A stretch of DNA of 64,000 bases from Escherichia phage KKP 3715, in the sequence record OR067834.1; one strand, written 5' to 3'. The notes beneath the pieces are model-generated. The model did not search any database. It was not told where the DNA came from and saw nothing but the letters and a program-made list of their open reading frames with translations. Shown in pieces: positions 8,458 through 34,523 of the stretch. The first letter of the stretch is position 1. Each line of letters starts with the position of its first letter. The translations under genes and the position numbers were made by a program.

Positions 8458-8463
8458 TACTTA

Positions 8464-8481
8464 GCCCCTCTTTGGAGGGGC
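8464..8481 (+). terminator. hairpin GCCCCTC-TTTG-GAGGGGC after tailspike 1 (weak U-tract)
   Basis: Read from sequence; followed by ATTACTT. Confidence 0.35.
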
Positions 8482-8507
8482 ATTACTTAGAATAAAACGA
8501 GGTATAT

Positions 8508-17443: not shown

Positions 17444-18085
17444 ATGAACATGAGCATTAACGATAAACCGACCACTGACGTAGAACTGGACGTACAGGGC
17501 AACGAAGATACCGTTAACGATATTGCAATGCCTAGCGAACTTGAAGTTCTTAAGCAACGTGCAACGTTGATGAATATTAAGTTCTCTAACAACATCTCCG
17601 TTGAGAAGCTCCGTGAGAAGATTGAAGCTGCACAAGCAAAAGATGAACCAGAAGTAAAAGAATCAGCAGTTAATCCTTTGGGTGAAAAACAGGAAGCTGG
17701 TGTTAAGAAAATGACCCTGGGTCAGAAGATTCGTGCAGAACAGACTCGACTGATTCGTGTACGTATCCAGAACCTAGACCCTAAGAAGAAAGACCTGCCG
17801 GGTGAGATTATCACCGTAGCTAACGAATATATGGGTACTGTACGTAAGTTTGTTCCATTCGGTGAAGTCACCGACAATGGTTATCATATTCCGTACTGTA
17901 TCTATGAGTTCCTTAAAGAGCGTAAGTTCATCAACATTACGACTCGTAAAGGTAAGAATGGCTTACCGGATATCCGTGCAACAGAGGCACGTGAGTTCTC
18001 CATTGAAGTATTGCCTCCGCTGACTGAAGCAGAATTGACTCAACTGGCTCAAGCACAGATTGCTGCTGGTAGCCTGAACGATTAA
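17444..18085 (+). CDS. virion structural protein
   Basis: 213-aa ORF in the conserved structural block. Confidence 0.5.
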   Translation: MNMSINDKPTTDVELDVQGNEDTVNDIAMPSELEVLKQRATLMNIKFSNNISVEKLREKIEAAQAKDEPEVKESAVNPLGEKQEAGVKKMTLGQKIRAEQTRLIRVRIQNLDPKKKDLPGEIITVANEYMGTVRKFVPFGEVTDNGYHIPYCIYEFLKERKFINITTRKGKNGLPDIRATEAREFSIEVLPPLTEAELTQLAQAQIAAGSLND

Positions 18086-18155: not shown

Positions 18156-18998
18156 ATGATTATGTCTTGTTCTGCTGAGGTAGAAGCTAACCGACTCCTA
18201 GAAGAGTTAACTAAGGGGGATGACTTTACCCTCCCTGACATTGATATGTCTGGTCCTGAATGGGATATCCCTGGTGGTGATGAATCCCCAATCTTTGGTG
18301 CCATTAGCAAAGTAACTAACGAATCGCTTACTACACGTGAAGTAGGTGGTAGTGGTACGTTTGATGCATTAATGGAATCTGCACACAATCACCTTAGAGC
18401 TGAGTATAAAGCTAACCGTATTACCGGTGGTGAATACACCAAAGCCTATATTGCCATGATGGAATCATGCATGAGTAATGCTGTTCAGTTCTTACTTGGT
18501 CGTGACCAAGCATACTGGGCTGCTGCTATGGCACAGATTCAGGCAGTTACTGCACGAGTGCAACTGGCAACGTCTAAGGCACAGTTTGTACTGGCTAAGA
18601 TTCAGGCACTGTCTGCTAAGAGTGAATATGCTCTTACTAAGATGAAGATTGCTACTGAGTCTGAAACATACTGTGCTGCATTGTTTAATGTGAATAAAAT
18701 TCTTCCTGCACAAGAACGTTTGATACAGGAACAATATGAAGTACAACGTGCACAGACCCAAGAAACTCGTTCTGATGCATTACCTATTCTTGGTTCTATT
18801 GGTAAACAGAAAGAGTTGTATTCCCAACAGATTACTTCTTATCAGCGAGATGCAGAAGTTAAAGCGGCTAAGCTGTTTACTGATGCATGGATTACACAGA
18901 AGACTATTGATGAAGGCTTGAACCCACCTAATGGTTTCACTAACGCAAGTATTGATACCATTCTGACCAAGCTGAAGTCTAACAACGGGCTGAACTAA
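18156..18998 (+). CDS. virion structural protein
   Basis: 280-aa ORF. Confidence 0.5.
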
Positions 18999-18999: not shown

Positions 19000-21642
19000 A
19001 TGGGCTTATTCAGTGGGAAGACCAAAGTATACGTAGCATCCTCTGTCTATAACATGGCAGGGGATATACATAAGCGCCCAAACTATATGAAGACTGTAGT
19101 CATCGGTAAGATTGTTGCTGATACAGGATTCACTATGGCAGACACTATCTCTGATAGTTATCTGAATGGACCGGGTATTCGTATGCGACTGTTCTCCAGC
19201 TGGAGTAAGAACCACTATGATTCAGAAGTTGGTATGGCAGGAGCTTCATTAGGTGTGCTGGCTAAGATTGACCCTACTATTATAGAGGGTCAAATTACCC
19301 CACCTGCTGGGGAGACTGTCTATGTTCAGGCAGCAGAGATTGGCTTTGCTGACTTTGAGCAATGGTGTGACCAGTATCTTTATGAGAATGCCCCAAGTCG
19401 AATAATGGAGCGATTCGACGTAGACATTGATGAAGATACTAATGAAATTACTATGACCTCCCTTGATGGTGGTTCTACCATTACATTCACACCTACTAAC
19501 TTTGAACCAGGTGCTTTGTATCTCTATGCTGATTACACTTTCTATAAGTCCCCAGCTACCAATCCACCGGTAGTAGGGCCGACTACTGTCTATGATAATG
19601 AAGGCGACTTACCATCTACCCTGCTATGGACTACCATCTCAAGTGATACGACAGCTAATACAACCAATCTTACTAAGACTATACAGACTCATTCTGTTTA
19701 CTCTGATGGTAGACCGGATGAAGACAGTACTGTTACTGAACCAAGTGTGGATAACTGGAATTCTTACGTTAAGGTTTACCGTAGAGGATTTACTGAGAAA
19801 CCTGATGATGTAACTGTGGTTGTATCTGACAGGGTAATGACTCATACAAAGTTTGGTGAGGTTCAATCTAGCACTACTGTAACTACCAATGTTGTTGATT
19901 TAGGTGGTGGTGTTACTCGCACAGATACAATCACTACAACTACAGAGACACTGGTTCGTAAGTACTCATCCCAGACTACCCGTACTGATACTGAGATGAC
20001 TGCTGTTGGTACACCTAAGATGCTTATCTATAAGCAGAACTCAGGCAACGTTGCACTTGATTCACTGTTTGAGACTGAAGCTACCGATAACCGATTCTAC
20101 CCATTCATTCCAATCAGGAATGATAAGCAATGGGTAGAGAATGACCCAATCTACCCCCACTGTAAGAAGGCACTCTATAAAGCTACCGGTGGTAAACTCA
20201 ATAAAGTAGTGACTGAGCTTAAGAAGAATGACGACATAGATGATATCCAATACATCTATGGCACATTCGGTGTATCTCTTAATACTCCAGAGGATACTGC
20301 TAAGGAATACATCTACCGTTTCTTTCAGATGGCTACTGAAGCATTCCCACCTGACCCAACCTACCCTACACTGGAAGCAGTGATTGCAGGTTATCAGGCA
20401 GCAAATGATGCAGTTGATGCATACGTAGAATGGTGGAACAGGCAGGAAGGTCAGGTAGTTGGAACACCTCCTCCACTACCGGAATACCCTGTCATACCTA
20501 AGCGAGAGTTTAGGGTACATAGTAATAAGCAGTACAAGTATGACATGACTATTGGTTGGAACTATGTGTCTGAAACTACTCATTCTGGTGAAGCATGGTC
20601 TGGTGCTAAACAAGGACAACTTCGAGCCAGATATGCAGGGGATATAACTCTTACACGTAAGAACATACGTACAGGTGCTAACAAAAAGCTGGAAGTTACC
20701 ACTACGTTTTATTCTATGCAGGAGTATGAATTGCTTTGGCAGGATGGTAATGACACCTACCGTAAACTTAGGGTACTGGGTCTGAACCACAACAACAGGG
20801 TATATAAAAATAAGTCAGTGAGCATTGATGTTGCCGAAGCAATGGGTGATGCAGAAGAGAGTGGATTCATTATTCCACTACACACTAACATCTACCGTTC
20901 AATGTCACTGACTCGTAGTACTCAACTGTCTACTGCTTGTTCCTACTTAGTGATGAACTCATATAAGAAGGTTAAGCAGAAGTGGTATACGACATCTGCC
21001 TTTAAGATTGTGGTTGTTGTAGTTGCTGTGGTTGTATCCGTATTCACTATGGGTGCTGGTGGTGCAGGTATTCTTGGGGCATACGGTGCAGTTGGTGCAT
21101 CACTTGGTTTTGTTGGATTAGCTGCTGTAATAGTAGGTGCTGTAGCAAACGCTATTGCTGCAATGATTCTGGTATCTATTATCACTAAAGTATCCACTTC
21201 TCTGTTTGGTGATAAGCTAGGCTTTATCATTGCTGCTGTTGCTTCAATGGTAGCTATGAACGTTGGCACTGCTATGTCTACCGGTACATCCTTATCTACC
21301 TTAGCCAGTGAAATGATGAATGCCCAAAACATCATGCAGCTTACCAGTTCAGTAGGTAACGGTATTAGCCAGTATATTAATGCATCCACGGCTGCTACTA
21401 TTCAGAAAGCAGAGAATGTAATGCAGCAGTACAATACTGATATGATGGCAATCAATAAGCAGTATGAAGAAATGTTTGGTACTGCTGGACAGGGTGTAAT
21501 TGACCCTATGCAATTTGTGTCAATTGAGTCGATGGATTCTTTCCTCTCACGTACTCTTATGACTGGTTCGGATATAGCTGACATGTCTTTAAATATGATT
21601 GGAAGCTACTCTGATATGACTCTTAATACAGACCTTGTTTAA
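19000..21642 (+). CDS. large virion protein with C-terminal Gly/Ala-rich multi-TM region; putative ejection/channel protein
   Basis: 880 aa; residues ~660-760 are strongly hydrophobic (SAFKIVVVVVAVVVSVFTMGAGGAGILGAYGAVGASLGFVGLAAVIVGAV...). Confidence 0.6.
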   Translation: MGLFSGKTKVYVASSVYNMAGDIHKRPNYMKTVVIGKIVADTGFTMADTISDSYLNGPGIRMRLFSSWSKNHYDSEVGMAGASLGVLAKIDPTIIEGQITPPAGETVYVQAAEIGFADFEQWCDQYLYENAPSRIMERFDVDIDEDTNEITMTSLDGGSTITFTPTNFEPGALYLYADYTFYKSPATNPPVVGPTTVYDNEGDLPSTLLWTTISSDTTANTTNLTKTIQTHSVYSDGRPDEDSTVTEPSVDNWNSYVKVYRRGFTEKPDDVTVVVSDRVMTHTKFGEVQSSTTVTTNVVDLGGGVTRTDTITTTTETLVRKYSSQTTRTDTEMTAVGTPKMLIYKQNSGNVALDSLFETEATDNRFYPFIPIRNDKQWVENDPIYPHCKKALYKATGGKLNKVVTELKKNDDIDDIQYIYGTFGVSLNTPEDTAKEYIYRFFQMATEAFPPDPTYPTLEAVIAGYQAANDAVDAYVEWWNRQEGQVVGTPPPLPEYPVIPKREFRVHSNKQYKYDMTIGWNYVSETTHSGEAWSGAKQGQLRARYAGDITLTRKNIRTGANKKLEVTTTFYSMQEYELLWQDGNDTYRKLRVLGLNHNNRVYKNKSVSIDVAEAMGDAEESGFIIPLHTNIYRSMSLTRSTQLSTACSYLVMNSYKKVKQKWYTTSAFKIVVVVVAVVVSVFTMGAGGAGILGAYGAVGASLGFVGLAAVIVGAVANAIAAMILVSIITKVSTSLFGDKLGFIIAAVASMVAMNVGTAMSTGTSLSTLASEMMNAQNIMQLTSSVGNGISQYINASTAATIQKAENVMQQYNTDMMAINKQYEEMFGTAGQGVIDPMQFVSIESMDSFLSRTLMTGSDIADMSLNMIGSYSDMTLNTDLV

Positions 21643-22099
21643 CAGGAGAATCCCCATGGATTTGTCATTCTTAACAGGCAACCAAACCCCACAGCCAGCT
21701 GCTATGTCTTGGATGTCTAATAACAATCAGAACTTTAATACCCCAGCTATGAACTATAACCCTGGTGCAGCTATTGGTATGAATGCAGGTACAGGGTTAA
21801 CTACACCTACATCTTTCTTATCTGGTTCAGCTAATCAGTTAGGTATGAACGTACCTACCTTCCAACTAGGACTTGGTGCACTTGGTTCCTTAGCAGGTAT
21901 CTATAGTGGTTTCCAGGCTAACAAACTAGCCAAAGACCAGTTGAACTTTACTAAGAGTGTTACTAACACTAACCTGAATAACCAGATTAAGTCTTATAAC
22001 ACTGCACTGGAAGACCGTGCTCGTAGCCGTGCTACAGCAGAGAACCGTGATCAGTCTTCGGCTGATGCTTACATTGCAGCTAATAAACTAACTCGTTAA
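21635..22099 (+). CDS. virion protein
   Basis: 154-aa ORF; 8-nt overlap with the upstream gene. Confidence 0.5.
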   Translation: MFNRRIPMDLSFLTGNQTPQPAAMSWMSNNNQNFNTPAMNYNPGAAIGMNAGTGLTTPTSFLSGSANQLGMNVPTFQLGLGALGSLAGIYSGFQANKLAKDQLNFTKSVTNTNLNNQIKSYNTALEDRARSRATAENRDQSSADAYIAANKLTR

Positions 22100-22111
22100 T
22101 AGGAAACCATC

Positions 22112-24076
22112 ATGGCTCAAATTACATGGCGTAATGTTGATGCACCTAACTTCTCTGGAGTTGGTGACAGCATTCGCACATTTGGCAGCATGATTGGTAA
22201 CGCCACCTCCGGCTTAAGTGATGCACTGGGTAATTTCCAGAACGCTGCCAAGCAGGAGGCTGGCAATGCCGTCATGATGAATGCTATGCAGTACCAAGAC
22301 CCGAATGAATACCGAAATGCTTTGGCATCCGGTGCATTGTTTCAGGGGGTTGACCCTTCACTGGTAAACCAACGTACCCTTCAAAACCTGGATGAGCGAG
22401 CAGGAACACTACTGACTCAGCAGGGGCAGCAGGGAACCAATGACTACAATGCATATCGCTTTGGTCGTTTACAGGATACTAACTCTGCATTAGATAATGC
22501 TTCCCCGGCTATTCGTTTACTATCTGAGGCTTATCAGTCCGGTGACCAGAACCGTATTAATGCTGCATTAAGTCAGACCCGTGATGCACTGTCTGCACTC
22601 CCTGCTGACCAGCAATTGGACATGCTTGGTCGTCTTCAAGGTCAGGGTGGTCAGGCTATTAATCAGGCACAGAACCGTTTTGACTTGGGTGTGGCTCAAC
22701 GTAATGATGCCGATAGTCAGGCAGCTATGGGTGTAATGTCACAGATTACCCGTGGTGCTGAGAACCCCAATGATGCCCGTCTGTTGGCTGAAGCATATAG
22801 TAAGAACCTGTCCCCGGTTGCACAGGCACGTTTGCAGGGATTACTGGCTAATGCTTACCCGGGTGTGTACGGTAACAATGTTGGTGCTACGTCTGCTCCG
22901 GGTACTGCTGGTACTCGTCAGGGTTCCCCTTACGATGTTACTTACCAGTTTGCTGGTACATCTACTCCTATTACTCAAATGAGTATTGGTGATGTAATTA
23001 AACACCAGGATGGTATGAAGACGAACCAGGGTGCTTCACCTGTTGGTGCATTCCAGATTAACCAAGCTACTCTGAAAGACTTCGCTCCCAAAGTTCTTGG
23101 TTCAGATTGGCAAAGCCAGCCACTTTCTCCCGAGAACCAGGATAAGATTGGTAAGGCTATCTTTGAGGCCCGTAAGAATGGCAACCTTAAAGATACCTGG
23201 GCTGCTCTGCCTAACTCTACCCCAGGTGCTTATAAGGATATGACTTGGGAACAGATTAAACCTGTTATTGCCCAAGCTGAGGTGGGGGCTGACCCACTTG
23301 CTATGGTTCAGAATAATCAAGGTAATCAGGCAGTATCTACTCTGGCTCAGGGTATGATTGGTACTCGTTCTATGCAGGATAACACCGGTAGTCTTAACAC
23401 CGACTTCCTTGGTACTGTCACTGATAATACCCCAGTAGGTGAGATTGCTAACCGTCTGTTGGAAGGTGATTTTAAAGGTGCTGACCGTAACTGGGTACTG
23501 AACCGACTGAATGATATTTCTCAACGAGGGAATATGTCACCAGCTATGGCTGCTGCTGTTATGCAACGTGCACAGACGGGTGTACCGGAAGGTTACATTA
23601 GCCGTGCTATTGATGCAGTTAACCCATTCATTACCAATGAAGCCGGTAATGGTATGCGTCTTAATGACCGTCAGGTAGAACAGTTAATCGAGGGTGTGAA
23701 ACGGGGAGAGCCACTGGAAGGTAGTGTACGTAACCTTGGTCGTGCTCAGGCTATGCAGAACATTCAGGCAGCACAGACTGCATATGATGCTGCTGTAGCT
23801 GCACTGACAAATACCCAGAATAAGATTAACACCGGACAAACTGGTCTTACTGCACTGTTACCTGCACGACAGGAGGCTGTTACTAAAGCTGCTGCAATGC
23901 TCCAAGCTGCACAGGCACAAGTACAGGCTGACCCAGCTAACCTGGCTCCAAGAGGTTTCCAGTCACAGTCTAGTGTGGACAGGGCACGAGCTAAGGAAGA
24001 TGAAGAACGTGCTGCACGATACTTACGTCAGGCACAAGGACTGCCTGAGTATATGCAACCCAGACAAAATCGGTAA
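22112..24076 (+). CDS. virion protein
   Basis: 654-aa ORF, Gln/Ala-rich; immediately upstream of the virion RNA polymerase. Confidence 0.55.
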   Translation: MAQITWRNVDAPNFSGVGDSIRTFGSMIGNATSGLSDALGNFQNAAKQEAGNAVMMNAMQYQDPNEYRNALASGALFQGVDPSLVNQRTLQNLDERAGTLLTQQGQQGTNDYNAYRFGRLQDTNSALDNASPAIRLLSEAYQSGDQNRINAALSQTRDALSALPADQQLDMLGRLQGQGGQAINQAQNRFDLGVAQRNDADSQAAMGVMSQITRGAENPNDARLLAEAYSKNLSPVAQARLQGLLANAYPGVYGNNVGATSAPGTAGTRQGSPYDVTYQFAGTSTPITQMSIGDVIKHQDGMKTNQGASPVGAFQINQATLKDFAPKVLGSDWQSQPLSPENQDKIGKAIFEARKNGNLKDTWAALPNSTPGAYKDMTWEQIKPVIAQAEVGADPLAMVQNNQGNQAVSTLAQGMIGTRSMQDNTGSLNTDFLGTVTDNTPVGEIANRLLEGDFKGADRNWVLNRLNDISQRGNMSPAMAAAVMQRAQTGVPEGYISRAIDAVNPFITNEAGNGMRLNDRQVEQLIEGVKRGEPLEGSVRNLGRAQAMQNIQAAQTAYDAAVAALTNTQNKINTGQTGLTALLPARQEAVTKAAAMLQAAQAQVQADPANLAPRGFQSQSSVDRARAKEDEERAARYLRQAQGLPEYMQPRQNR

Positions 24077-24086
24077 TACTAATAAA

Positions 24087-24109
24087 AGCCCTACGGGGCT
24101 TTTTTCTTT
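24087..24109 (+). terminator. intrinsic terminator (AGCCC-TACG-GGGCT then TTTTTCTTT)
   Basis: Read from sequence. Confidence 0.7.
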
Positions 24110-24152
24110 AACTGGCTTACTGTAGAGTAAGTTACCTATATACGATATAAGT

Positions 24153-27100
24153 TTGAACAGGAAACATGCTATGTCAACATTTGACCGTCTGGCAGGTTTC
24201 GCAGACAGCATCACTAATGCTAAGCAAGTCGATGTCTCTACTGCAACCTCTCAGAAGCAAGCTGCACAAGGGCAAAGCCCTTTCCAATTAACCCCAGAGA
24301 ATGCTTACAATCTCCAGACTGGACGAGTAGGTAATCTTGGAATCGGTGCATTCGAACCAGATTCACTTCAGGCAGATTTCACTCAAGCCTCCCCATTAGA
24401 AATCATTAATAAATACGGTAATGAGCAAGGTTTACAGATTCTTAATAGCCGAGCTAATGCTGCTGATGTTGTACGTCAGGACTTATCTAAACAGCGTACT
24501 AACGCAGAAGCATTTGGCGATACTCTTTCTGGTGTTGGTCTTGGTGTTGCTAATACCCTTGGGGGCATTGCTGCTCTTGGCACAGGTCTGGTCAATGATA
24601 ATGCCGGGGCAACCATTGCTTCCGGGATGGATTGGTTGAATGAAGGCGTACACAATCTCCAGTCTGATGCACTGAATGCTACCCGTAAAGTTGTTCAGAA
24701 TCAGAACCAGATTTCTGCTCAAAAGAACCAGAAACTCTATGAAGAAGACATCAAAAATGGGGAGAGCGATTTGGTTGCCTCCTTGTCTCGCATTGGTCGT
24801 GACGCTTTCGATTCTGTTGCTAATACACTTGATAATGGTATGGCTGCTTCCGACGGACTGAGTGAAGGGGTTGGTTCCCTCTTTACTGGTGGTCCACTTA
24901 TTCGTGGTGTATCTGCACTTGGTAAAGTAATGGTAGGTGGTGATAAAGCTGTTAAGGGTATTACCTTAGCTGCTGGGTTAGGTTCACGCCCTGCACAGGT
25001 TGCATTGTCTGCTGGTCGTGTTGCTGCACCTGCTATTGCAATCGGTGGTATGGAAGCTGGTGGTGCATACCAACAGACTGCTTCTGAAATCATGAAGATG
25101 TCCCATCAAGAATTGGCAAGCAAGTCTCCTGTTTACCAACAACATATTGCTGATGGATTATCCCCTGATGAAGCACGTCGTCAGACTGCATCTGAAACAG
25201 GTATCATTGCTGCTGGCTTAACTGCTCCAGTTGCTGCTGCTACCGGCCCATTGGTATCTCGCTTTGAACTTAATCCACTTAAGGTAGGTTCACTTGCAGG
25301 TGCTGGTTCTAATATGCTGCGTGAGACTGTAGAGGAAGGTATTCAGTCAGGCTTTGGTCAATATGCCCAGAACCGTGCAATCAAGGAAAATGTTGATGCA
25401 TCCCGTGACGTTCTCAAAGGAGTCGGTGAGCAAGCAGGTCTGGGTGCACTTTATGGCTTCGGTAGTGCTGGTGTTGCTCAAGCTCCTGGTGCAACTGTTA
25501 AAGCTGCCGGTGCTGCTGCTGGACCTGCTCTTCGTACTACTCTGGCTGGTGCTTCTCTGGTTGGTAAAACATTAGCAAAAGCTGCATCTCCTCTTACTAA
25601 TATCCTGGTTCAACGTGGTGAAGAAGTTGCTAAGCGTAATGAACAAGCATCCCCTGTAGCTGATGCTACGGTTAATGCTGCTGCACAGGAAGCTGCTGCT
25701 CAGGCAGAGCAAGCACAGGCAACTGTACAGGAAGCAGTAGATGCAATGGATATCTCTCCAGAAGAGAAAGCTGCTGCTACCCAATATGCTGCTGACTTAA
25801 CTCAGGCAATGAAGTTTGATCCAGTAGAATTGGAACAAGCTAATCCAACAATCCGTGAAGCTGTTTCTGGTTCCACTAACCGTGTAGAAGCTATTCAGAA
25901 GATGGCTGACCTGGTTAATACTGCCGAAGACCCTAACGTTCAAATGGAAGCAGCAATCCAGATGTATGACAATATCATGTCCATGGATAGCTTCATTAAC
26001 CGTGACCCGGGTGCTCTGGCTAATCTGGAACAGGGTTCCCCTGCTGCTGCAATTGTAGACCAGTTCTCTGGCCTGATGGCTAACGTACAGAATACCCCTA
26101 AAGTACTTCGTGCATTCCGTGCTATTCATTCCATGATTCAGGAACAGGCTGAAGCAGGTAAGCTGAAAGCTACTGAAGAAGCTAACCAAGCCCAGGCAAA
26201 TAACATTGCTATGGCTGCTGATGTATCTCCAGAAGTGCTGGATGCAGATTCAGTGAACATGGTTCTGAAACATGCAAGTGAAGGTAAGATTACATTAGGG
26301 AATCGTCAACGTGCTGCCCTGCAATCTGCTGCTGCCTTGTTACAGGGTGCACGTGAGTTCGACGCTAAAGCAGAAGAACTAGGCTTACGTCCTCAAGACA
26401 TTGTTAGTAAACAGATTAAAACCGATGAGTCTCGTTCTAATGAAGGACAGTACTCTGCGTTGCAACATGCGAAACGCATTCGTTCTGCGTATAACTCTGG
26501 TAACTTCGATTTGGCCTCCGCTTATCTGAGCGACTTTATGAAGTTCGCCCAGCACATGCAGAATAAGGTCGGAGCGTTGAATGAGCATTTGATTTCGGGG
26601 AATGCGGATAAGAATAAGTCTGTTCATTATCAGGCTCTCTCGCCTTCCCGTGAATGGGTACGTAGTCGTACTGGCCTCGGTGTCAATCCTTACGATACCA
26701 AGTCTGTTAAGTTTGCCCAGCAAGTAGGACTGGAGGCCAAAACCGTAGCTGATATTGCTAATGCACTTGCTACGGCTTACCCGGAGCTTAATGTTTCTCA
26801 TGTGAAAGTTACCTCGTTGGATTCACGTCTGAACAAGCCAGCTGCCCAGGTAGTTAAAGAGTTCCGTCAAGGTGGTCTTGATGCCACTCAGTCTCAACAG
26901 ACTAATGAACCAGTGAATCAGGTTGATGAATCTCCTGCACCAGTGCAAGAGGACACTACTACTGTACAGCCTAAAGCTAAACCAGTGGTAGAAAATAAGA
27001 CTGCTCCTACTAAGGAGACTAGTCCAAAAACAGAAGAAGTCTCTACTACTAAGTCTGAAACAGTAGAAGCTACCCCCACTAATGAGGATACCATCCAGGA

Positions 27101-30100
27101 AGTAGCCAAAACCAAAACAGAAATGGAAACAGTGTTCCCTGTCTATAACAATGAAAAGACACCGAACCAGTTCCTGAAAGCATTTACCTTACCAGAGGAA
27201 CCTAAGTCTCGTACCGTTGGTTCTGAATCTCCTTTGGCTGATATTAAGCAAGCACTGTCTTCTGTTGCTCGCTTTGAGGCATTTACTCAAAAAGAAAATA
27301 ACGTTCTCACAGGTGATGTGATTAAGCGTTATCAGGACTTAATGGACTTTGGGGAAACTCTGAAGACTACTTTGTCTGAACGATTGGCTAAGTTCCTTGC
27401 TAATAAGAACGTTGGTAAACGTTTTGCAGAAGGTACTGAAGCTAACCGTTGGGTAGGTGGCAAACTACTTAATATCGTTGAACGAGATGGTGACACCTTT
27501 AAGTTTAATGACCAGTTGTTAGAGACTGCTGTACTTGCTGGTCTGCAATGGCGACTGACTGCTACACAGAATGCTGCCATTAAAGACATGAAAGATGTGG
27601 CTGCTATTACTGGTGTAGAAGCATCTTTGTTACCAGAAGGTATTCTGGCTGAGTTTGAGAATGCCCAGACTCTGGTAGAAGCTACTAACTCACTGGCTCA
27701 GAAGATTGAATCCTACTGGGGTTTAAACCGTAATCCTAATGCACCACTTGGGTATACAAAAGGCATCCCAATGGCAATGGCTACAGAGATTCTGTCTTCC
27801 CTCATTGAGATGGGTGAAGTTAAAGAATCTATGCTGGATGTGTCCGAGATTGACCCAGACTCCAATAAGACTGTCGGTCTGTATACTATTGAGAAGCTGG
27901 ATGACAACGATGCCATTAACAAATTCCCTACTGCTATTGAGGAAGCTGTCCTCTTAGAACCAGAAGAGAAAATGTATTTTGATGATGATATTCCTTCTGT
28001 GGCTCAAACTCAGTTGCGTAACCCTGCTGTTAAGAATACCCCAGAACAGAAAGCTGCACTTAAAGCTGAACAGGCTACTGAGTTCCGTGTACATATGCCG
28101 ATGGTTAACTTCTATGAAGCATTAGGCCGTGACAACATTCTGGAACTGATGGGTGCTGGTACTCTTAATCCTGATTTGCTGAATAAAAACACTGCCAAAT
28201 CTTTGGAAGGTAAAAACCTGTCCGTATCCATGGCATATGATTCTCTGTTCGGTGTAATTAATCAGATACGAGAACAAGAGAATGGTCTGGATACTCCTAT
28301 TCACTACGGTTACAACATGACTCGTGTAGGTCGTATGCAGATGCTTGGTAAGAACAACCCACAATCCAGTAAACTGGTTCGTGAAGCAATTCTGCCGACC
28401 TTCTCTACTATCGACTTGAGTAATGAAAACAGCCAAGCATTCTCTGACTTCCAGCTAGGACTGGCTCAGGCATTAGGCATCAAGGTACATAAAATGTCAC
28501 GTGAAGCTATGTCTGAAAATCTGACCAAAGCTCTGGAAGGCAATCTGAAGCCTGCTGTTGATATGATGGTTGAGTTTGATAAGGCTGGTTACTTACCTAC
28601 TGATGCAGTAGATATTCTGAAGACTTCTCTGGGTGATAACAAATCCTTCGTGGCTCTCATGGCTCTGATGGAATATGCCCGTTACCTGAACAGTGATGAC
28701 CGTGCTAATTTTACTACTCCCTTGTACGTTGAAGCTGATGGTGTAACCAACGGCCCAATCAACGCAATGGTATTAATGACTGGTGGTAAGTTCACGCCCG
28801 ACTGGATTAAGAACACTGCCAAAGGTGGTTTGTTCTTTGGTCGTGCTGGTAAAACGATGAACGAACACTGTTCTATCGACGATAATGTTGACTTGTATGA
28901 AGCATCTACCAATGGTCTGCAACAAGCACTGAATGAGTTACGTACTACTTACCGTAACAACGTTCCGGTTATGAGCCAGATGAATCATCTCCAGAAGTTA
29001 ATGGACTTGTTCATTAAAGACTTTAATCTGAACGAAGACGGTACTCTGGACCTGAAACGTGGTATCGCTAAAAACCCACTGACCATTACCATCTATGGTT
29101 CTGGTGCACGTGGTATTGCTGGCAAGATGGTTAGTGCAATTACTGACACCATCTACGAACGCTTCAGTGACGTTCTGCAAGCACGGGCTGCTGACCCTAG
29201 CATTTCCCCAGCTATGGCAATGTTTGGTAAGGAGGCTGCGTCTGAGGCTGATGCTCAGGCTATGCTGGATACTTTCCTTACTTCTATGGAAGCACTGACT
29301 GGCAATGTTCCAGTTATGCGTAAAGGTGAATTGTCTATTCAGCAAGTAGATGGTGCTCTGACTGGTAAGTTAGACCCTCAGAAGTTTACCGTATCCGGTA
29401 ATGCTCTGAAGAACTTACAAGAGAACATGCTCCACCTGTTCGTTGAACCAATGCGTACCGGTATCCGGAATACTGTTGGTGAAGGTCTGATGCACTCTAC
29501 TGAGAATTTGCAGAAGGCTACCCAGATTCAATCTCTGGTATTGCAGGATATGTTCCAGCAAGCAGTACAGGCTAAGCTGGCAGAAAAAGAAAAAGACCCA
29601 ACCTGGAAGAAGGGTGATTTCTTAACGCAGAAAGAACTGAATGAAATCCAGGAATCATTATCTCCACTGGCTCCAATGATTGAGACTGGCTCACAGACTT
29701 TCTACATTGCTGGCAGTGAGAATACTGATGTTGCTAACCAAGTACTGGCTACTAACTTAGATGATCGTATGCGTGTGCCAATGAGCATCTATGCTCCTTC
29801 ACAGGCAGGTGTTGCAGGTATTCCATTTATGACCATCGGTACTGGTGATGGCATGATGATGCAGACCCTTTCTACTATGAAGGGTGCTCCGAAGAATACC
29901 CTGAAAATCTTTGATGGTATGAACATTGGTATCAGTGACATTACTGATGCAAGTCGTAAAGCTAACGAGGCTGTATACACTTCCTGGCAGGGGAACCCTA
30001 TCAAGAATGTTTATGACTCCTACGCTAAGTTCATGAAGAATGTAGACTTCAGCAAACTGTCTGATGAAACCAAACAGGCTATCGCTAAATCTGCTCTGGA

Positions 30101-33100
30101 ATATGACCTGCGTGAGGGTGCTACCGATGACCTGTTACGTGCAGGTGCTGAACAGATTGAACGTAACCTACGTAACATTGCTCTGGGTGTAGATATTCGT
30201 CACAAAGTGATGAACCAGGTACAGACCACTGTTGACCAGATGGCTGCTGTAGGTGCTCCTTATGTGAACAACGGTAAAATCTCTCTGGAAGGTCTGACTG
30301 TAGACCAGCAAGTAGCTAAGCTAAACGAACTATTTGATGCTGAATTAAATAAGCGTCGTGATGCAGTACGTGCTGCTAAAGCAGAACCTGTTAAAGAAGT
30401 GCCAGCTATGGAACAAGTTGGTCGTGTACTGAAGTCTGGTGTACGTCTGTTGTCTAATACTGCTATCACTAAGCTGGCTAAAGAGATGACTTCTGAACAG
30501 CAAGCAGTATTGAAAGAAGTACAGAAATCCCTTGCTGCTAAAGACTACAAGGTTGTTTACGGTACTCCTGCTCAACTGGATGCTTATGCTATTGAGAAGA
30601 ACATTACTCGCCCAGCACCGGAAGATATTGAAGCTGCCGAAGCTGGTAATGCATATGGCTGGACTAACTTTGATGATAAAACCATCTACTTAGTTACCCC
30701 TTCCTTAGAGACTCTGGTTCATGAATTAGTACATGCTTCTACTTTTGAATCTGTACTGGCTCACTATGAGGGTACTCCTAACGAAGCAGTCCAGAACATC
30801 GAAGATCTTATGAACCAGTTCCGTACTCTGGATGTTAAGAACGAATCCCCGGCAGTACGTGAAGCATATGCTGATGCACTCAATACCATTAACGGTCACT
30901 TGTCTAATGGCTTTATTGAACCTGCAATGGCTAAAGCTGCTGCACTGAATGAGTACATGGCATGGGGCTTAACCAATCGTGAACTGATTGGTAAGCAGAA
31001 GAAGACCACTGCACTGAAAACTATGGTTCAGTCTGTGTATGAAGCAATCAAGCGTCTGGTATTTGGTCGCAAGAAAGCACCTGCTAATGCAGATGATATG
31101 TTCTCCGGATTACTGTTTAACTCTTCAGTAGTTATGCGTGGGCAGGCTCCTACTGCTGCTGTATCCAAAGACACTACCTTGTTCCATAACAAAGCATATG
31201 GAGATAATACCCGTCTTGAAGAATTGGGGCAGACCTTTGATAAGCTGATTACTAACTACATTGGTTCTGAACCAGTGCAGCAAGTAATTCGTAAAGGTAA
31301 GTTCTCTGATGCAGTAGTGAATGCAACTAAAGTAACTCGTGATGTTCAGGCTTATGGCTTTACCATGAATATGCAGGAACAGCGATTGTTCACTAATATC
31401 GTTGCTGCTTTGGCTACTGAAGCTGCTATTAGTCCGGCTGCTCTTTCTCGTGCACAGGAATACTATGCACACGTTACTAAGAACCTGACCGTTGAATCAT
31501 TCATGGCTGACCCGGATAGTACTAACCCTGCTGACCGTTACTATGCTCAACAGAAGTTCGATACCATCATGGGTGCTAACAATATTGAGTTTGATGCACA
31601 AGGTCGTTCTTCCTTACTGCCTACCTTTGTTGGTCTGGCAATGGTAAGTGAAGAGGTGCGTAACGTACTGGCTAACATTCCTGTTATGAAAGCAGATAAG
31701 AAATCTGGTAATACCGTTGATGCAATGCTGACTAACATTGGTACTGCTGCAATGTCTAGCCTGAACGCTCGTGTAGCAGGTGATACCAAAGCTACTAACG
31801 TACAGGAAGGTATGGATGCACTGGCTCAGACAATCATGCAGACAAGTCTTAATGCACAGTCATTCTATGATTCCGTTGCTACTCCTAGTGGTAATGCTAT
31901 TGACCGTGCTAACCAGTATCTGGTGGATTCTATTGATGCACTGTCTACTCGTGCTTTAGAAAGTGCTCGTGAAGTTGCAGCTAATACCAAGAACCCATTG
32001 GTTAAGGGTGCTGCTCATGCTGCACAATTGGTGGCTGCTATTGCTACTGAGAAGAACGGTGCAATCGTGGCAGAAGGTGTTATGGCTGCAATGAACCAGG
32101 GCAAGGTATGGCAACCTTTCCACGACTTGGTTAATGACTTAACTGGTCGTACTAAGAGCAATGCTTCTGTATACGATTTGATTAAAGCAGTTCGTGCACA
32201 GGTACAGGCTGACCGTCAGCAGTTCCGTGAACATCTGCCTACCACTATCGCATCTAAGTTCAGCCGTAAGCTGACTAACGATGAGTGGAAAGCAATGCAC
32301 ACCGGTATGGGTAAAACTGACTTAGCTGTTCTGCGTGACACTATGTCTCTGGCTGAAATCCGTGACCTGCTGTCTGACCAGAAGATTGTTGACCGTGAAG
32401 TGAATAAGCTGGAAGCAGATTTGCAGAAACAAGCTGGTCGTAACTGGCCTCTGATTAACCGTAAATCTAAGCAACTGGCTCAGTACATGATTAACGGTAC
32501 GGTCGGTAATAACCTGCTGCGTAATGCTACTGCAATCTCCCGTATGCTGGGTGAACGTCAGGCTGCTCGCTCTACTGTAGATGTAGCTCAACTGGATAAA
32601 CTGATTACCCTGTATGCACTGGAAGCAATGAACAAGTCCGACCGTGAGACGTTATCTTCACTGGCTCAGACAGAAGTTGAGGGAATGGACTTTGCTACTT
32701 CTTACCTGGTTGGACAACGTAAAGATGAAATGGCTAAAGCCAAGTCTGATATGCGTGCAACCCTGAACCAGTACAAAGGGCATATTCCTAGTGAGACTAA
32801 ACAGGGTGTTAATCTGATTGTTGCTGAAGATAGCCAGTTTGCTGATTTGATTGAGAAGTCCTATGTACGTCTGGGTACTTATCAAGGTAGCTCTGCTAAC
32901 CGTGGTCCGGCACGTAGCTATTACTTTGCACCAGTACAGGCACAGGCTCCTTTCTCACAGGGTATCCTACAGAACGTTCGTAATACTGCTGGTGGTGTAG
33001 ACCTCGGCACAGGCTTTACGATGGGTTCCATGGTAGCTGGTCGTATTACTGACAAGCCTTCCGTAGACCGTATCACTAAAGCACTGGCTCGTGGCGAACG

Positions 33101-34523
33101 TGGTAATGAACCACTGCTGCCTGTATATGACGATAAAGGTAATGTAGTTGCCTATGAGCAATCCATTGACCCTAATATGCTGAAGCACATTGAGGGTGAG
33201 AACCATCTTGCCCGTGCAATCGGCGTATGGCGTGGTCGTCAGGTGGAAGAAGCTAAGGCTCAGCGTTTCAACGATATGCTGATTGAGAACCTGCATAGCA
33301 TGTATGAGAACGACATTAAGATGTCTGCCTCTAATAAGTCCCAGTACGTTAACCTTCTTGGTTCTAAATTGGACCCAGTAACTGCTGATGCTCTTAAGCT
33401 AATGAATAGTGAAACCCGTCAGAAAGCAGAGAGTTTGTTCGGTGAGGGTGAACTGTGGGTACGTCGTGACATGCTTAATGATGCACTTGGTTATCGTGCA
33501 GCTTCTGTAGGTGATGCCTGGTCTGGTAATTCTCGTTGGTCTCCGGAAACATTGGATACCTTTAAGAAAGCTATGCTGGGTGTATTTGGTAACCGTGCCT
33601 ATAAGTACACAATGGGTGGTGAGAACCTGGTTCAAAACTTAGTTAAAGAAGCTAAGACTCTGATTGTAGTTAAGTCAGTAGTCGTACCTGCTGTTAACTT
33701 CTTAGCTAACCTTTACCAGATGGTTGCCCGTGGTGTACCGGTTAAGAACATTGCTAAGAGCATTCCACAGAAGACTGCTGAGATTAACCAGTACCTTAAA
33801 TCACGTCTGCGTCAGGTAGATGCAGAAGCAGAATTACGTGCAGCTACTAACCCGAACCAGATTCGTAAACTTAAGGCTGAGATTCAGTCCATTACTGATA
33901 GCCATAAGCGTATGAGTATCTGGCCTCTGTTGGAAGCCGGTGAGTTCTCTTCAATTGCAGACGCTGGTATTGGTCGTGATGACATCCTGATTACTGAAGG
34001 CAAACTCCACGAATACATGGATAAGCTGGCAGATAAGTTACCTAAGTCTGTGCGTACTGCCGGTCGTTATGCACTTATTACTAAGGATACTGCTCTGTTC
34101 CAGGGTATCCAGAAGACGGTTGAGTACTCTGACTTTATCGCTAAAGCAATCATCTATGATGAACTGACTCAGCGTAAAGGTAAGACTCGTGAAGAAGCAC
34201 TTGGGCGTGTAACGGAAGAGTTCGTTAACTATGACCGTTTACCTGGTCGCTTCCGTGGGTACATGGAAAGTGTTGGTTTAATGTGGTTCTACAACTTTAA
34301 GATTCGTTCAGCTAAGGTTGCTGTGTCCATGATTCGTAATAACCCTGTACATGCAACAATGGCGATGCTGGCTCCAACTCCTACCATGTTTGGTAACGTT
34401 GGCTTACCTATTCAGGACAACATCTTTAGTATTGCTGCTAAGGGTAGTCTGGATTACTCATGGGGCTTTGGTCAGGGTCTTCGTGCTCACAACCTGAACC
34501 CTTGGATGAACCTGGTAAACTAA
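24153..34523 (+). CDS. virion-encapsidated RNA polymerase (giant, N4 vRNAP-like)
   Basis: 3456-aa ORF, the hallmark of N4-like phages. Track start is TTG at 24153; ATG at 24171 with AGGAAA RBS is the more likely start. Confidence 0.9.
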   Translation: MNRKHAMSTFDRLAGFADSITNAKQVDVSTATSQKQAAQGQSPFQLTPENAYNLQTGRVGNLGIGAFEPDSLQADFTQASPLEIINKYGNEQGLQILNSRANAADVVRQDLSKQRTNAEAFGDTLSGVGLGVANTLGGIAALGTGLVNDNAGATIASGMDWLNEGVHNLQSDALNATRKVVQNQNQISAQKNQKLYEEDIKNGESDLVASLSRIGRDAFDSVANTLDNGMAASDGLSEGVGSLFTGGPLIRGVSALGKVMVGGDKAVKGITLAAGLGSRPAQVALSAGRVAAPAIAIGGMEAGGAYQQTASEIMKMSHQELASKSPVYQQHIADGLSPDEARRQTASETGIIAAGLTAPVAAATGPLVSRFELNPLKVGSLAGAGSNMLRETVEEGIQSGFGQYAQNRAIKENVDASRDVLKGVGEQAGLGALYGFGSAGVAQAPGATVKAAGAAAGPALRTTLAGASLVGKTLAKAASPLTNILVQRGEEVAKRNEQASPVADATVNAAAQEAAAQAEQAQATVQEAVDAMDISPEEKAAATQYAADLTQAMKFDPVELEQANPTIREAVSGSTNRVEAIQKMADLVNTAEDPNVQMEAAIQMYDNIMSMDSFINRDPGALANLEQGSPAAAIVDQFSGLMANVQNTPKVLRAFRAIHSMIQEQAEAGKLKATEEANQAQANNIAMAADVSPEVLDADSVNMVLKHASEGKITLGNRQRAALQSAAALLQGAREFDAKAEELGLRPQDIVSKQIKTDESRSNEGQYSALQHAKRIRSAYNSGNFDLASAYLSDFMKFAQHMQNKVGALNEHLISGNADKNKSVHYQALSPSREWVRSRTGLGVNPYDTKSVKFAQQVGLEAKTVADIANALATAYPELNVSHVKVTSLDSRLNKPAAQVVKEFRQGGLDATQSQQTNEPVNQVDESPAPVQEDTTTVQPKAKPVVENKTAPTKETSPKTEEVSTTKSETVEATPTNEDTIQEVAKTKTEMETVFPVYNNEKTPNQFLKAFTLPEEPKSRTVGSESPLADIKQALSSVARFEAFTQKENNVLTGDVIKRYQDLMDFGETLKTTLSERLAKFLANKNVGKRFAEGTEANRWVGGKLLNIVERDGDTFKFNDQLLETAVLAGLQWRLTATQNAAIKDMKDVAAITGVEASLLPEGILAEFENAQTLVEATNSLAQKIESYWGLNRNPNAPLGYTKGIPMAMATEILSSLIEMGEVKESMLDVSEIDPDSNKTVGLYTIEKLDDNDAINKFPTAIEEAVLLEPEEKMYFDDDIPSVAQTQLRNPAVKNTPEQKAALKAEQATEFRVHMPMVNFYEALGRDNILELMGAGTLNPDLLNKNTAKSLEGKNLSVSMAYDSLFGVINQIREQENGLDTPIHYGYNMTRVGRMQMLGKNNPQSSKLVREAILPTFSTIDLSNENSQAFSDFQLGLAQALGIKVHKMSREAMSENLTKALEGNLKPAVDMMVEFDKAGYLPTDAVDILKTSLGDNKSFVALMALMEYARYLNSDDRANFTTPLYVEADGVTNGPINAMVLMTGGKFTPDWIKNTAKGGLFFGRAGKTMNEHCSIDDNVDLYEASTNGLQQALNELRTTYRNNVPVMSQMNHLQKLMDLFIKDFNLNEDGTLDLKRGIAKNPLTITIYGSGARGIAGKMVSAITDTIYERFSDVLQARAADPSISPAMAMFGKEAASEADAQAMLDTFLTSMEALTGNVPVMRKGELSIQQVDGALTGKLDPQKFTVSGNALKNLQENMLHLFVEPMRTGIRNTVGEGLMHSTENLQKATQIQSLVLQDMFQQAVQAKLAEKEKDPTWKKGDFLTQKELNEIQESLSPLAPMIETGSQTFYIAGSENTDVANQVLATNLDDRMRVPMSIYAPSQAGVAGIPFMTIGTGDGMMMQTLSTMKGAPKNTLKIFDGMNIGISDITDASRKANEAVYTSWQGNPIKNVYDSYAKFMKNVDFSKLSDETKQAIAKSALEYDLREGATDDLLRAGAEQIERNLRNIALGVDIRHKVMNQVQTTVDQMAAVGAPYVNNGKISLEGLTVDQQVAKLNELFDAELNKRRDAVRAAKAEPVKEVPAMEQVGRVLKSGVRLLSNTAITKLAKEMTSEQQAVLKEVQKSLAAKDYKVVYGTPAQLDAYAIEKNITRPAPEDIEAAEAGNAYGWTNFDDKTIYLVTPSLETLVHELVHASTFESVLAHYEGTPNEAVQNIEDLMNQFRTLDVKNESPAVREAYADALNTINGHLSNGFIEPAMAKAAALNEYMAWGLTNRELIGKQKKTTALKTMVQSVYEAIKRLVFGRKKAPANADDMFSGLLFNSSVVMRGQAPTAAVSKDTTLFHNKAYGDNTRLEELGQTFDKLITNYIGSEPVQQVIRKGKFSDAVVNATKVTRDVQAYGFTMNMQEQRLFTNIVAALATEAAISPAALSRAQEYYAHVTKNLTVESFMADPDSTNPADRYYAQQKFDTIMGANNIEFDAQGRSSLLPTFVGLAMVSEEVRNVLANIPVMKADKKSGNTVDAMLTNIGTAAMSSLNARVAGDTKATNVQEGMDALAQTIMQTSLNAQSFYDSVATPSGNAIDRANQYLVDSIDALSTRALESAREVAANTKNPLVKGAAHAAQLVAAIATEKNGAIVAEGVMAAMNQGKVWQPFHDLVNDLTGRTKSNASVYDLIKAVRAQVQADRQQFREHLPTTIASKFSRKLTNDEWKAMHTGMGKTDLAVLRDTMSLAEIRDLLSDQKIVDREVNKLEADLQKQAGRNWPLINRKSKQLAQYMINGTVGNNLLRNATAISRMLGERQAARSTVDVAQLDKLITLYALEAMNKSDRETLSSLAQTEVEGMDFATSYLVGQRKDEMAKAKSDMRATLNQYKGHIPSETKQGVNLIVAEDSQFADLIEKSYVRLGTYQGSSANRGPARSYYFAPVQAQAPFSQGILQNVRNTAGGVDLGTGFTMGSMVAGRITDKPSVDRITKALARGERGNEPLLPVYDDKGNVVAYEQSIDPNMLKHIEGENHLARAIGVWRGRQVEEAKAQRFNDMLIENLHSMYENDIKMSASNKSQYVNLLGSKLDPVTADALKLMNSETRQKAESLFGEGELWVRRDMLNDALGYRAASVGDAWSGNSRWSPETLDTFKKAMLGVFGNRAYKYTMGGENLVQNLVKEAKTLIVVKSVVVPAVNFLANLYQMVARGVPVKNIAKSIPQKTAEINQYLKSRLRQVDAEAELRAATNPNQIRKLKAEIQSITDSHKRMSIWPLLEAGEFSSIADAGIGRDDILITEGKLHEYMDKLADKLPKSVRTAGRYALITKDTALFQGIQKTVEYSDFIAKAIIYDELTQRKGKTREEALGRVTEEFVNYDRLPGRFRGYMESVGLMWFYNFKIRSAKVAVSMIRNNPVHATMAMLAPTPTMFGNVGLPIQDNIFSIAAKGSLDYSWGFGQGLRAHNLNPWMNLVN

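What the first reader, a model, noticed from the sequence alone, without database searches (positions are those of the whole stretch)
19000..21642. Large virion protein with a long Gly/Ala-rich multi-helix hydrophobic region
Residues ~660-760 of the 880-aa protein are almost entirely hydrophobic with Gly/Ala repeats, as expected for a protein that inserts into the host envelope during ejection of DNA and the 3456-aa polymerase.
Basis: inference. Interest (0 to 1): 0.35.

Follow-up and report, generated by a model that had tools for sequence, protein, structure and literature searches.

The report
N4-type phage tail plug protein
The 880-residue protein matches the recently solved tail plug (gp53) of phage N4, where the greasy Gly/Ala-rich stretch is a cork that seals the tail tube, so the feature is real but already explained and is not shown to insert into the host envelope.

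Summary
ORF 19000-21642 (+) encodes 880 aa. Residues 661-760 are a strongly hydrophobic, Gly/Ala-rich, almost charge-free block, far beyond what shuffling gives.

The window is a G7C-like (Gamaleyavirus) N4-family coliphage. The protein is the full-length ortholog of N4 gp53 (54% identity, PDB 9YFT) and sits in the conserved order gp54 tube, gp53, gp52, gp51, gp50 vRNAP.

Published cryo-EM (Bellis et al. 2026, PMC13434306) shows N4 gp53 as a single-copy tail plug. Residues 29-56 and 670-716 form a "hydrophobic knot" of six short helices that corks the 12-mer tail tube. The last ~160 residues run up the lumen. Numbering is the same here.

Orthologs were detected in virions of N4, LIT1 and Moo19. 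The "inserts into the host envelope" part is not. That role was assigned experimentally to gp52, gp51 and the gp50 N-terminal domain, and the plug stays on emptied N4 particles.

Two points remain open. This phage lacks gp64/gp65, the N4 partner that holds the plug. On simple scales, gp53 also carries the only membrane-grade segments of the block tested (portal gp59, capsid gp56, gp55–gp50), so a secondary membrane role is not excluded.

Verdict: new member of a known kind, low to moderate interest.

The parts
19000..21642 (+). gp53-like tail plug gene (880 aa)
   Evidence: ORF. phmmer full-length match to PDB 9YFT chain FA 'Gp53', E=0, query 1-879 to chain 1-883. PHROG 2220, E=0. 54% global identity to N4 gp53. 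92-95% nt identity to 'hypothetical protein' genes of G7C-like phages.
19084..19167 (+). aa 29-56: N-terminal segment that joins the hydrophobic knot in N4 gp53
   Evidence: N4 residues 29-56 map to window residues 29-56. Knot described in PMC13434306. The AF2 model has helices 29-40 and 46-55.
19525..20043 (+). aa 176-348: Thr-rich 'beta-feather' of four very long antiparallel strands
   Evidence: Domain-only AF2 model, pLDDT 92.5, strands of 24-38 residues. Called a feather-shaped beta-sheet protrusion in N4. Absent or shortened in about 15% of aligned homologs and in DEV gp74.
20980..21279 (+). aa 661-760: the hydrophobic Gly/Ala-rich block the finding describes
   Evidence: hydropathy, composition, shuffles, conservation.
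21007..21147 (+). aa 670-716: the part of the block that forms the cork ('hydrophobic knot') inside the tail-tube base in N4
   Evidence: Residue-for-residue correspondence with N4 670-716. Structure described in PMC13434306. Conserved Gly ladder G690/693/699/703/706/713.
21172..21639 (+). aa 725-880: C-terminal tail, unresolved in N4 and thought to lie in the tail lumen; includes the third hydrophobic segment 740-758 and the conserved motif 841-860
   Evidence: [quoted passage not shown] AF2 gives helices with pLDDT<50. E843, F848, R851, T852 and G856 are invariant.
18156..18998 (+). gp54 tail-tube gene (the tube that the plug seals)
   Evidence: tblastn with N4 gp54: 63% identity. PHROG 2050 virion structural protein. 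Role from PMC13434306.
21656..22099 (+). gp52 ejection protein gene (start ATG 21656 behind AGGAG, not TTG 21635)
   Evidence: tblastn with N4 gp52: 56% identity from 21656. Sequence read.
22112..24076 (+). gp51 ejection protein gene
   Evidence: tblastn with N4 gp51: 50% identity. phmmer to PDB 11mn '66 kDa protein', E=3.6e-129.
24171..34523 (+). gp50 virion RNA polymerase gene
   Evidence: tblastn with N4 gp50: 66% identity over residues 1-3500.

Best explanation
The gene encodes the tail plug of an N4-family (Schitoviridae, Gamaleyavirus) podophage, the ortholog of N4 gp53.

Inferred by homology to the N4 structure:
- Residues ~7-665 form a globular core plus a long beta-feather outside the tube.
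- The Gly/Ala-rich hydrophobic helices 670-716, together with residues 29-56, fold into a compact, water-excluding knot. This knot corks the ~35 A tube opening and keeps the DNA and ejection proteins in.
- The rest of the hydrophobic block and the conserved C-terminal ~160 residues extend up the lumen next to gp52.

Inferred mechanism:
- On productive contact with the cell surface the plug is displaced sideways.
- Pulling its C-terminus out of the lumen releases gp52, then gp51, then the vRNAP and the DNA.
- The small residues (a Gly ladder at fixed positions) allow the very tight helix packing needed in the confined lumen.

What is shown here: orthology, synteny, fold similarity, and conservation of the hydrophobic block.
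What rests on homology to the N4 and DEV structures: location, copy number, knot geometry and release.
For: Orthology and context:
- Full-length phmmer match to N4 gp53 in PDB 9YFT (E=0), and a weaker match to DEV 'N4 gp53-like protein' 9ZE4_M.
- 54% global identity to N4 gp53, rising to 65-80% across residues 601-800, with identical numbering across the knot.
- Conserved gene order gp59...gp56-gp55-gp54-gp53-gp52-gp51-gp50.

Structure:
- The AF2 model is confident for residues 7-665 and unconfident for the hydrophobic C-terminus. This fits a region that needs the tube to fold.
- The top Foldseek PDB hit is the DEV tail-gating complex plug 9ZE4_M: E=8e-17, prob 1.0, TM 0.56 on the target.

Conservation:
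- The hydrophobic block is among the most conserved and most length-invariant parts of the family, with position-specific Gly, Ala and Asn conservation.
- The family has 2456 representatives at E<=1e-3.

Literature:
- N4 gp53 is the plug, with a knot from residues 29-56 and 670-716, a 12:6:1 symmetry mismatch, and the plug seen on both full and empty particles (PMC13434306).
- DEV gp74 is the homologous plug (PMC12892993).
- Virion mass spectrometry found the LIT1 and Moo19 orthologs.
Against: - There is no structure or proteomics for this phage itself. The G7C GenBank record notes virion confirmation for gp51, gp54 and gp67 but not for gp53.
- The partner that holds the plug in N4 (gp65 domains D9-D10, with gp64) has no homolog in the window or in G7C. 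The gating arrangement must therefore differ.
- Moo19, a related Enquatrovirinae phage outside Gamaleyavirus whose tailspike N-termini match this phage's, showed only very weak, unassignable density at the tube tip.
- Segments 670-688 and 710-728 are as hydrophobic as true transmembrane helices. They are far more hydrophobic than anything in gp52, gp51 or gp50 of this phage. A simple cork does not obviously require this.
Confidence: 0.85

Rival explanations
1. Dual use. The hydrophobic helices cork the tube in the virion. After triggering they are pulled or pushed out and partition into the outer (or inner) membrane. There they anchor the tail tip or nucleate the gp52/gp51 channel. The analogy is to hydrophobic elements that first block a tail and then enter the membrane, such as the phi29 gp9 loops and the T5 pb2 C-terminus (own knowledge).
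For: - Two segments have near-zero or negative summed insertion free energy, and a third is marginal.
- They are the only such segments in the tested gp59/gp56–gp50 block (gp58 and gp57 were not scanned). The best gp52 segment scores +5.7, gp51 +11.4 and gp50 +4.4.
- There is a glycine-zipper-like ladder.
- Homologs in Vibrio phages were auto-annotated 'TMhelix containing protein'.
- This phage lacks the sheath/RBP gp65. The plug is therefore likely the most distal tail element and may touch the outer membrane directly.
Against: - In N4 the plug density is present on emptied particles, and the authors propose lateral displacement and re-corking.
- gp53 is single-copy, so it cannot form a homo-oligomeric pore.
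- Channel activity was shown for gp51 and gp52, not gp53.
- Near-invariant N717 and fixed-position glycines fit a specific packed fold at least as well as they fit generic membrane helices.
Confidence: 0.15
2. The hydrophobic block is an assembly device. It transiently anchors newly made gp53 in the infected cell's inner membrane, or to a chaperone, and guides tail-tube polymerisation or closure. It would have no role at entry.
For: - Segments this hydrophobic would normally be routed to the membrane when made in E. coli (inference).
- The gp53 start codon lies one base after the gp54 stop, which suggests coupled synthesis with the tube protein.
Against: - The N4 structure places the segment inside the mature tube, where it has an obvious sealing role.
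- There is no evidence of membrane-associated tail assembly in N4-like phages in the papers read.
Confidence: 0.05
3. The beta-feather plus the hydrophobic helices make gp53 a pore-forming-toxin-like membrane-attack protein.
For: Foldseek hits of the feather to ETX/MTX-2, aerolysin-type toxins and secretins, at E=1.9e-5 to 1e-3.
Against: - TM-scores are only 0.10-0.26, rmsd 16-30 A and identity 7-13%. This is generic similarity between long twisted beta-sheets.
- The feather is dispensable in DEV-type plugs.
- The protein is present as a single copy.
Confidence: 0.02

Closest known systems
Escherichia phage N4 gp53, tail plug (PDB 9YFT; Bellis et al., Nat Commun 2026, PMC13434306)
   Same: - Full-length homolog: 54% identity, 880 vs 885 aa.
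- Same gene position.
- Same beta-feather.
- The hydrophobic block coincides residue for residue (29-56 and 670-716).
- The C-terminal motif is conserved.
   Different: - This phage has no gp64/gp65 sheath and receptor-binding protein to hold the plug.
- It carries G7C-type O-antigen tailspikes instead.
- The surface regions 161-200, 241-280 and 481-600 are only 28-42% identical.
Pseudomonas phage DEV gp74, tail plug (PDB 9ZE4 chain M; PMC12892993)
   Same: - Homologous core and hydrophobic C-terminal block (domain 3).
- Best structural match in the PDB library searched.
- Also a single plug on a 12-mer tube.
   Different: - 740 aa, with no beta-feather.
- Held by the gp56-gp55-gp54 receptor-binding fibre, which is absent here.
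P22 gp26 / Sf6 tail needle (own knowledge)
   Same: Functional analog: a distal plug of a podophage tail that keeps the DNA in and senses the cell surface.
   Different: It is a trimeric coiled-coil needle with no homology and no hydrophobic block, and it is expelled on infection.
Ejection (internal) proteins: N4 gp52/gp51/gp50-NTD and T7 gp14/gp15/gp16
   Different: They are multi-copy, stored in the lumen or capsid, lost from emptied particles, and shown to form channels. gp53 is single-copy, mostly outside the tube, and retained on emptied N4 particles.
phi29 gp9 tail-knob hydrophobic loops (Xu et al. 2016, own knowledge)
   Same: A hydrophobic element occludes the tube in the virion. This gives a precedent for later membrane insertion.
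   Different: The loops belong to a hexameric tube protein, not to a separate single-copy plug. There is no sequence or fold relation.

Membership tests
N4 gp53-type tail plug (PHROG 2220) | Full-length sequence homology to N4 gp53 | tested here: met
   phmmer E=0, 1-879 vs 1-883 of 9YFT_FA. PHROG 2220 E=0. 54% global identity.
N4 gp53-type tail plug (PHROG 2220) | [quoted passage not shown] | tested here: met
   tblastn of N4 proteins against the window. G7C and N4 annotations.
N4 gp53-type tail plug (PHROG 2220) | Conserved hydrophobic knot segments (N4 residues 29-56 and 670-716) | tested here: met
   Same numbering and 65-82% identity in these stretches. Charge-free and gap-free in 255 homologs.
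N4 gp53-type tail plug (PHROG 2220) | Fold of the extraluminal core matches a solved plug | tested here: met
   Foldseek vs 9ZE4_M: E=8e-17, prob 1.0, TM(target) 0.56. 9YFT itself was not in the fold library.
N4 gp53-type tail plug (PHROG 2220) | Single copy sealing the distal end of the 12-mer tube in the virion | not testable with these tools
   Needs cryo-EM or proteomics of this phage. Shown only for N4 and DEV.
N4-type tail-gating complex (plug + gp65/gp64 sheath) | Presence of the gp65 receptor-binding sheath protein that clamps the plug | tested here: not met
   No tblastn hit for N4 gp64 or gp65 in the window. G7C goes from gp66 to gp63.1 to gp63. The two tailspike ORFs match Moo19, B2, G7C and CBA120 spikes.
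Podophage ejection / membrane-channel proteins (N4 gp51/gp52, T7 gp14-16 class) | Membrane-competent hydrophobic segments | tested here: met
   Summed Hessa scale -0.7 to +2.2 for three segments. Homologs labelled 'TMhelix containing protein'.
Podophage ejection / membrane-channel proteins (N4 gp51/gp52, T7 gp14-16 class) | Stored inside the lumen or capsid in many copies and expelled (absent from emptied particles) | not testable with these tools
   For the N4 ortholog the literature reports the opposite: single copy, mostly outside the tube, and present on empty particles.
Podophage ejection / membrane-channel proteins (N4 gp51/gp52, T7 gp14-16 class) | Inserts into lipid bilayers or forms channels | not tested
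   No data for gp53 in the papers read. Such data exist only for gp51 and gp52.
Aerolysin / ETX-MTX2 beta-pore-forming toxins | Significant structural superposition of the beta-feather on the toxin pore-forming module | tested here: not met
   Domain-only model (pLDDT 92.5). Best hits have TM 0.10-0.26 and rmsd 16-30 A.

The most novel reading that the evidence does not exclude
In sheath-less Gamaleyaviruses the plug may be more than a passive cork. It would be the most distal tail element and so the sensor that touches the outer membrane once the tailspikes have worked through the O-antigen. Its glycine-zipper hydrophobic helices are the only membrane-grade segments among the tail and ejection proteins tested. 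On release from the tube they would partition into the outer membrane and seed or anchor the gp52/gp51 conduit. One protein segment would then serve first as seal and then as membrane anchor.
Probability: 0.15. Interest if true: 0.55.

Novelty: new member of a known kind. Interest (0 to 1): 0.25.

Why it matters
Practical value:
- The gene and its 92-95% identical relatives are still labelled 'hypothetical protein' in every close phage record. They can now be annotated as the tail plug.
- The family is very large: 2456 cluster representatives.

Biological value:
- The interest lies in the differences from N4, not in the hydrophobic stretch itself.
- G7C-like phages keep the N4 plug almost unchanged, cork included, but have lost the protein that holds and triggers it in N4.
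- How an O-antigen-dependent, sheath-less N4 relative couples receptor recognition to unplugging is unknown, and it is directly testable.
- The plug's helices are far more hydrophobic than those of the proteins credited with spanning the envelope. This leaves a modest open question about what happens to the cork after release.

Tried and rejected
- Pfam scan of gp53 and its four neighbours: no family at E<=0.1.
- Reading the second N4 structure paper (Structure 2025, PMID 40318628): not held.
- Beta-feather as a pore-forming-toxin domain: a domain-only AF2 model plus Foldseek gave only low-TM generic hits, so this was rejected. Weak whole-model hits to ssRNA-phage maturation proteins (prob 0.1-0.4, TM<0.1) were ignored as beta-rich noise.
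- Lysozyme-like motif in gp51:
  - BLASTP against lambda R was not significant (E=0.49).
  - phmmer against the PDB found only N4 gp51.
  - A homolog search with the 141-aa segment returned nothing.
  - Only a sub-threshold Pfam SLT hit remained.
- Search for a gp65/gp64 homolog that could hold the plug: none in the window.
- No TMHMM or DeepTMHMM was available.
- The longest charge-free run alone is not a strong statistic (shuffle maximum 61 vs 60 observed). The 100-residue hydropathy statistic is the one that counts.
Full report
**What the window is.**
The 2643-bp ORF matches 57 phage records at 80-95% nucleotide identity. Almost all are G7C-like coliphages (E20, PhAPEC5/7, G7C, RudolfBernhard_Bas96). 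The gene is annotated 'hypothetical protein' in every close record.

G7C belongs to Schitoviridae, Enquatrovirinae, Gamaleyavirus. tblastn with N4 proteins places the whole late block on the + strand of the window:

| Gene | Window coordinates | Role |
|---|---|---|
| gp68 | 3433-5013 | terminase |
| gp67 | 5023-5731 | head-to-tail adaptor |
| gp66-like | 5725-8457 | tailspike |
| gp63.1-like | 8508-10496 | tailspike |
| gp59 | 12289-14559 | portal |
| gp57 | 14937-16157 | – |
| gp56 | 16174-17376 | capsid |
| gp55 | 17444-18085 | – |
| gp54 | 18156-18998 | tail tube |
| gp53 | 19000-21642 | this finding |
| gp52 | 21656-22099 | ejection protein |
| gp51 | 22112-24076 | ejection protein |
| gp50 | 24171-34523 | vRNAP |

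**Checking the observation.**
The ORF is 880 aa. Kyte-Doolittle 19-residue averages of 1.6 or more are confined to residues 661-760.

Composition of residues 661-760 against the rest of the protein:

| Measure | 661-760 | Rest |
|---|---|---|
| Gly+Ala | 32% | 12.7% |
| G/A/V/I/L/M/F | 76% | 38% |
| Charged residues | 5% | 20.6% |

Further checks:
- The best 100-residue hydropathy mean is 1.68. In 5000 shuffles it was 0.43 +/- 0.14, with a maximum of 1.11.
- A summed Hessa-type scale (values from memory, approximate) gives -0.01 for 670-688, -0.71 for 710-728 and +2.2 for 740-758. No window elsewhere in the protein scores below +8.7.
- The description 'almost entirely hydrophobic with Gly/Ala' is accurate. 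'Repeats' is loose: there are 11 overlapping small-xxx-small motifs and no true repeat.

**What it is.**
- phmmer against all PDB chains gives a full-length match (E=0, 1-879 vs 1-883) to chain FA of 9YFT, 'Gp53'. A weaker match goes to 9ZE4 chain M, 'N4 gp53-like protein'.
- Global identity to N4 gp53 is 54%. It is highest at the N-terminus (82% over residues 1-40) and across residues 601-800 (65-80%). Numbering is identical from residue 508 onward.
- PHROG 2220 (function unknown) matches end to end. Pfam has nothing.
- An AF2 model built on 42 homologs is confident for residues 7-665: a globular core plus four very long strands at 211-334. It is unconfident (pLDDT<50) and helical from 666 to the end.
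- Its best hit among solved structures is the plug of the DEV 'asymmetric tail gating complex', 9ZE4_M: E=8e-17, prob 1.0.
- The family is large: 2456 representatives of 50%-identity clusters at E<=1e-3, and 1226 at E<=1e-30. Many 730-850-aa members lack part or all of the beta-feather.

**What the literature says about the ortholog.**
Bellis et al. (Nat Commun 2026, PMC13434306) solved the N4 tail tip:
[quoted passage not shown] - One gp65 sheath protomer (domains D9-D10) clamps the plug core, giving a 12:6:1 symmetry mismatch.
- The plug is seen on both full and empty particles. The authors propose lateral displacement on receptor binding, with the C-terminus acting as a 'ripcord' for luminal gp52.
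- The envelope-spanning roles are given to gp52, gp51 and the gp50 N-terminal domain, supported by detergent dependence and bilayer recordings.

Other papers:
- DEV gp74 is the homologous plug without the feather. It is held by the gp56-gp55-gp54 receptor-binding fibre (PMC12892993).
- Orthologs were found in virions by mass spectrometry in N4, in LIT1 (gp74, 5 peptides) and in Moo19 (gp70).

**Conservation of the hydrophobic block.**
- In 42 homologs the blocks 601-720 and 841-860 are the most conserved. Blocks 681-720 and 741-760 contain no charged residue in any sequence.
- In 255 members (31-95% identity, median 37%), positions 670-725 and 740-760 remain charge-free and nearly gap-free.
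- G690, G693, G699, G703, G706, G713, A709, N717 (98%), G737 and G741 are almost invariant.
- Fixed-position glycines and an invariant Asn inside a greasy stretch indicate a specific, tightly packed fold. That is what a knot squeezed into a ~35 A lumen needs. They are more than a generic membrane anchor would require, although glycine zippers also occur in membrane proteins.

**Most likely mechanism.**
The protein is the single-copy tail plug. The hydrophobic Gly/Ala helices, together with residues 29-56, are the cork. The C-terminal ~160 residues lie in the lumen. Displacement of the plug on cell-surface contact starts the ejection cascade.

Orthology, synteny, fold and conservation are shown here. 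Location, stoichiometry, knot geometry and release are inferred from N4 and DEV. Confidence in this explanation is about 0.85.

'Large virion protein' and 'multi-helix hydrophobic region' both hold. 'Inserts into the host envelope' is not supported.

**What remains open.**
(a) The window has no homolog of N4 gp64 or gp65, and neither does G7C.
- Instead there are two tailspikes whose N-termini match G7C, Moo19, B2 and CBA120 spikes.
- Gamaleyaviruses depend wholly on O-antigen and not on NfrA/NGR.
- So the plug is conserved while its N4 clamp and trigger are absent. What holds and releases it here is unknown.
- Moo19 cryo-EM saw only weak, unassigned density at the tube tip.

(b) On the same simple scales, no other protein tested in the gp59–gp50 block has a segment approaching those of gp53.
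- Best 19-residue sums are gp52 +5.7, gp50 +4.4 and gp51 +11.4.
- Homologs in Vibrio phages carry the automatic label 'TMhelix containing protein'.
- A second life of the released cork in the outer membrane is therefore not excluded. I put this at about 0.15. Against it are the plug's retention on emptied N4 particles and its single copy.

**The beta-feather.**
A domain-only AF2 model (aa 176-348) is very confident: pLDDT 92.5, with four strands of 24-38 residues. Foldseek returns beta-pore-forming toxins and secretins, but with TM-scores of 0.10-0.26 and rmsd of 16-30 A. This is generic long-sheet similarity and not membership of those families.

**Verdict.**
The feature is real and statistically solid. 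It is explained by a recent structure of the N4 ortholog, so this is a new member of a known kind. Interest is low to moderate (0.25). It is carried by the missing clamp in sheath-less relatives and by the unusual hydrophobicity of the cork.

Noticed in passing
window 5023-5734 (break at about 5176-5186): The gp67 head-to-tail adaptor gene is broken by a +1 insertion in a C run ('TTTCCCCCCTT' here, 'TTT-CCCTCTT' in G7C). N4 gp67 residues 1-52 and 54-236 therefore fall in two frames. This is probably a homopolymer sequencing error. Otherwise the genome carries a defective essential gene.
   Followed up: yes
window 22112-24076 (gp51), aa ~288-375 = nt ~22973-23236: gp51 carries a lysozyme/SLT-like motif (…SPVGAFQINQATLKDFAPKVLG…SPENQDKIG…WAALPN), also present in N4 gp51. 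The Pfam SLT hit is sub-threshold (E=0.026, 14.5 bits vs cut-off 21.3). BLASTP against lambda R is not significant. A Roseococcus-contig homolog has a bona fide GH73 Glucosaminidase domain at the same position, aa 298-416. The N4 paper states that the ejection proteins have no known peptidoglycan hydrolase, and its construct ends at residue 359, inside this region.
   Followed up: partly
window 5725-10496: There is no gp64/gp65 sheath or receptor-binding gene. Instead there are two tailspike genes (910 aa and 662 aa). Their N-terminal anchor domains match Moo19, B2, G7C gp63.1 and CBA120 spikes, while their distal domains differ.
   Followed up: partly
L004 (Roseococcus sp. contig ctg13169, 296,681 bp; locus 1-22691): A complete N4-like late block sits near the end of a 297-kb bacterial contig: portal, capsid, gp55, gp54, gp53, gp52, gp51 and a vRNAP longer than 3538 aa. 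This could be an integrated or episomal N4-like element or a chimeric assembly.
   Followed up: no
window 24153-24173 and 21635-21658: Likely true start codons differ from the longest ORFs. The vRNAP starts at ATG 24171 behind AGGAAA (3450 aa, not 3456). gp52 starts at ATG 21656 behind AGGAG (147 aa, not 154), so gp52 does not overlap the gp53 stop.
   Followed up: yes
window 21656-34523 compared with 20980-21279: On simple hydropathy scales the published membrane-active ejection proteins are much less hydrophobic than the plug's C-terminal block. Best 19-residue windows score +5.7 (gp52), +11.4 (gp51) and +4.4 (gp50), against -0.7 for the plug.
   Followed up: partly
window 21520-21579 (gp53 aa 841-860): A second strongly conserved motif lies near the C-terminus (E843, F848, R851, T852 and G856 invariant in 42 homologs). 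It falls in the part that is unresolved in the N4 lumen and may be a contact with gp52 or the tube wall.
   Followed up: no
BFVD hits V5UQE7 (653 aa) and V5UR75 (246 aa), Shigella phage pSb-1: The pSb-1 ortholog of gp53 is deposited as two separate proteins, which suggests a frameshift or a sequencing error in that record.
   Followed up: no
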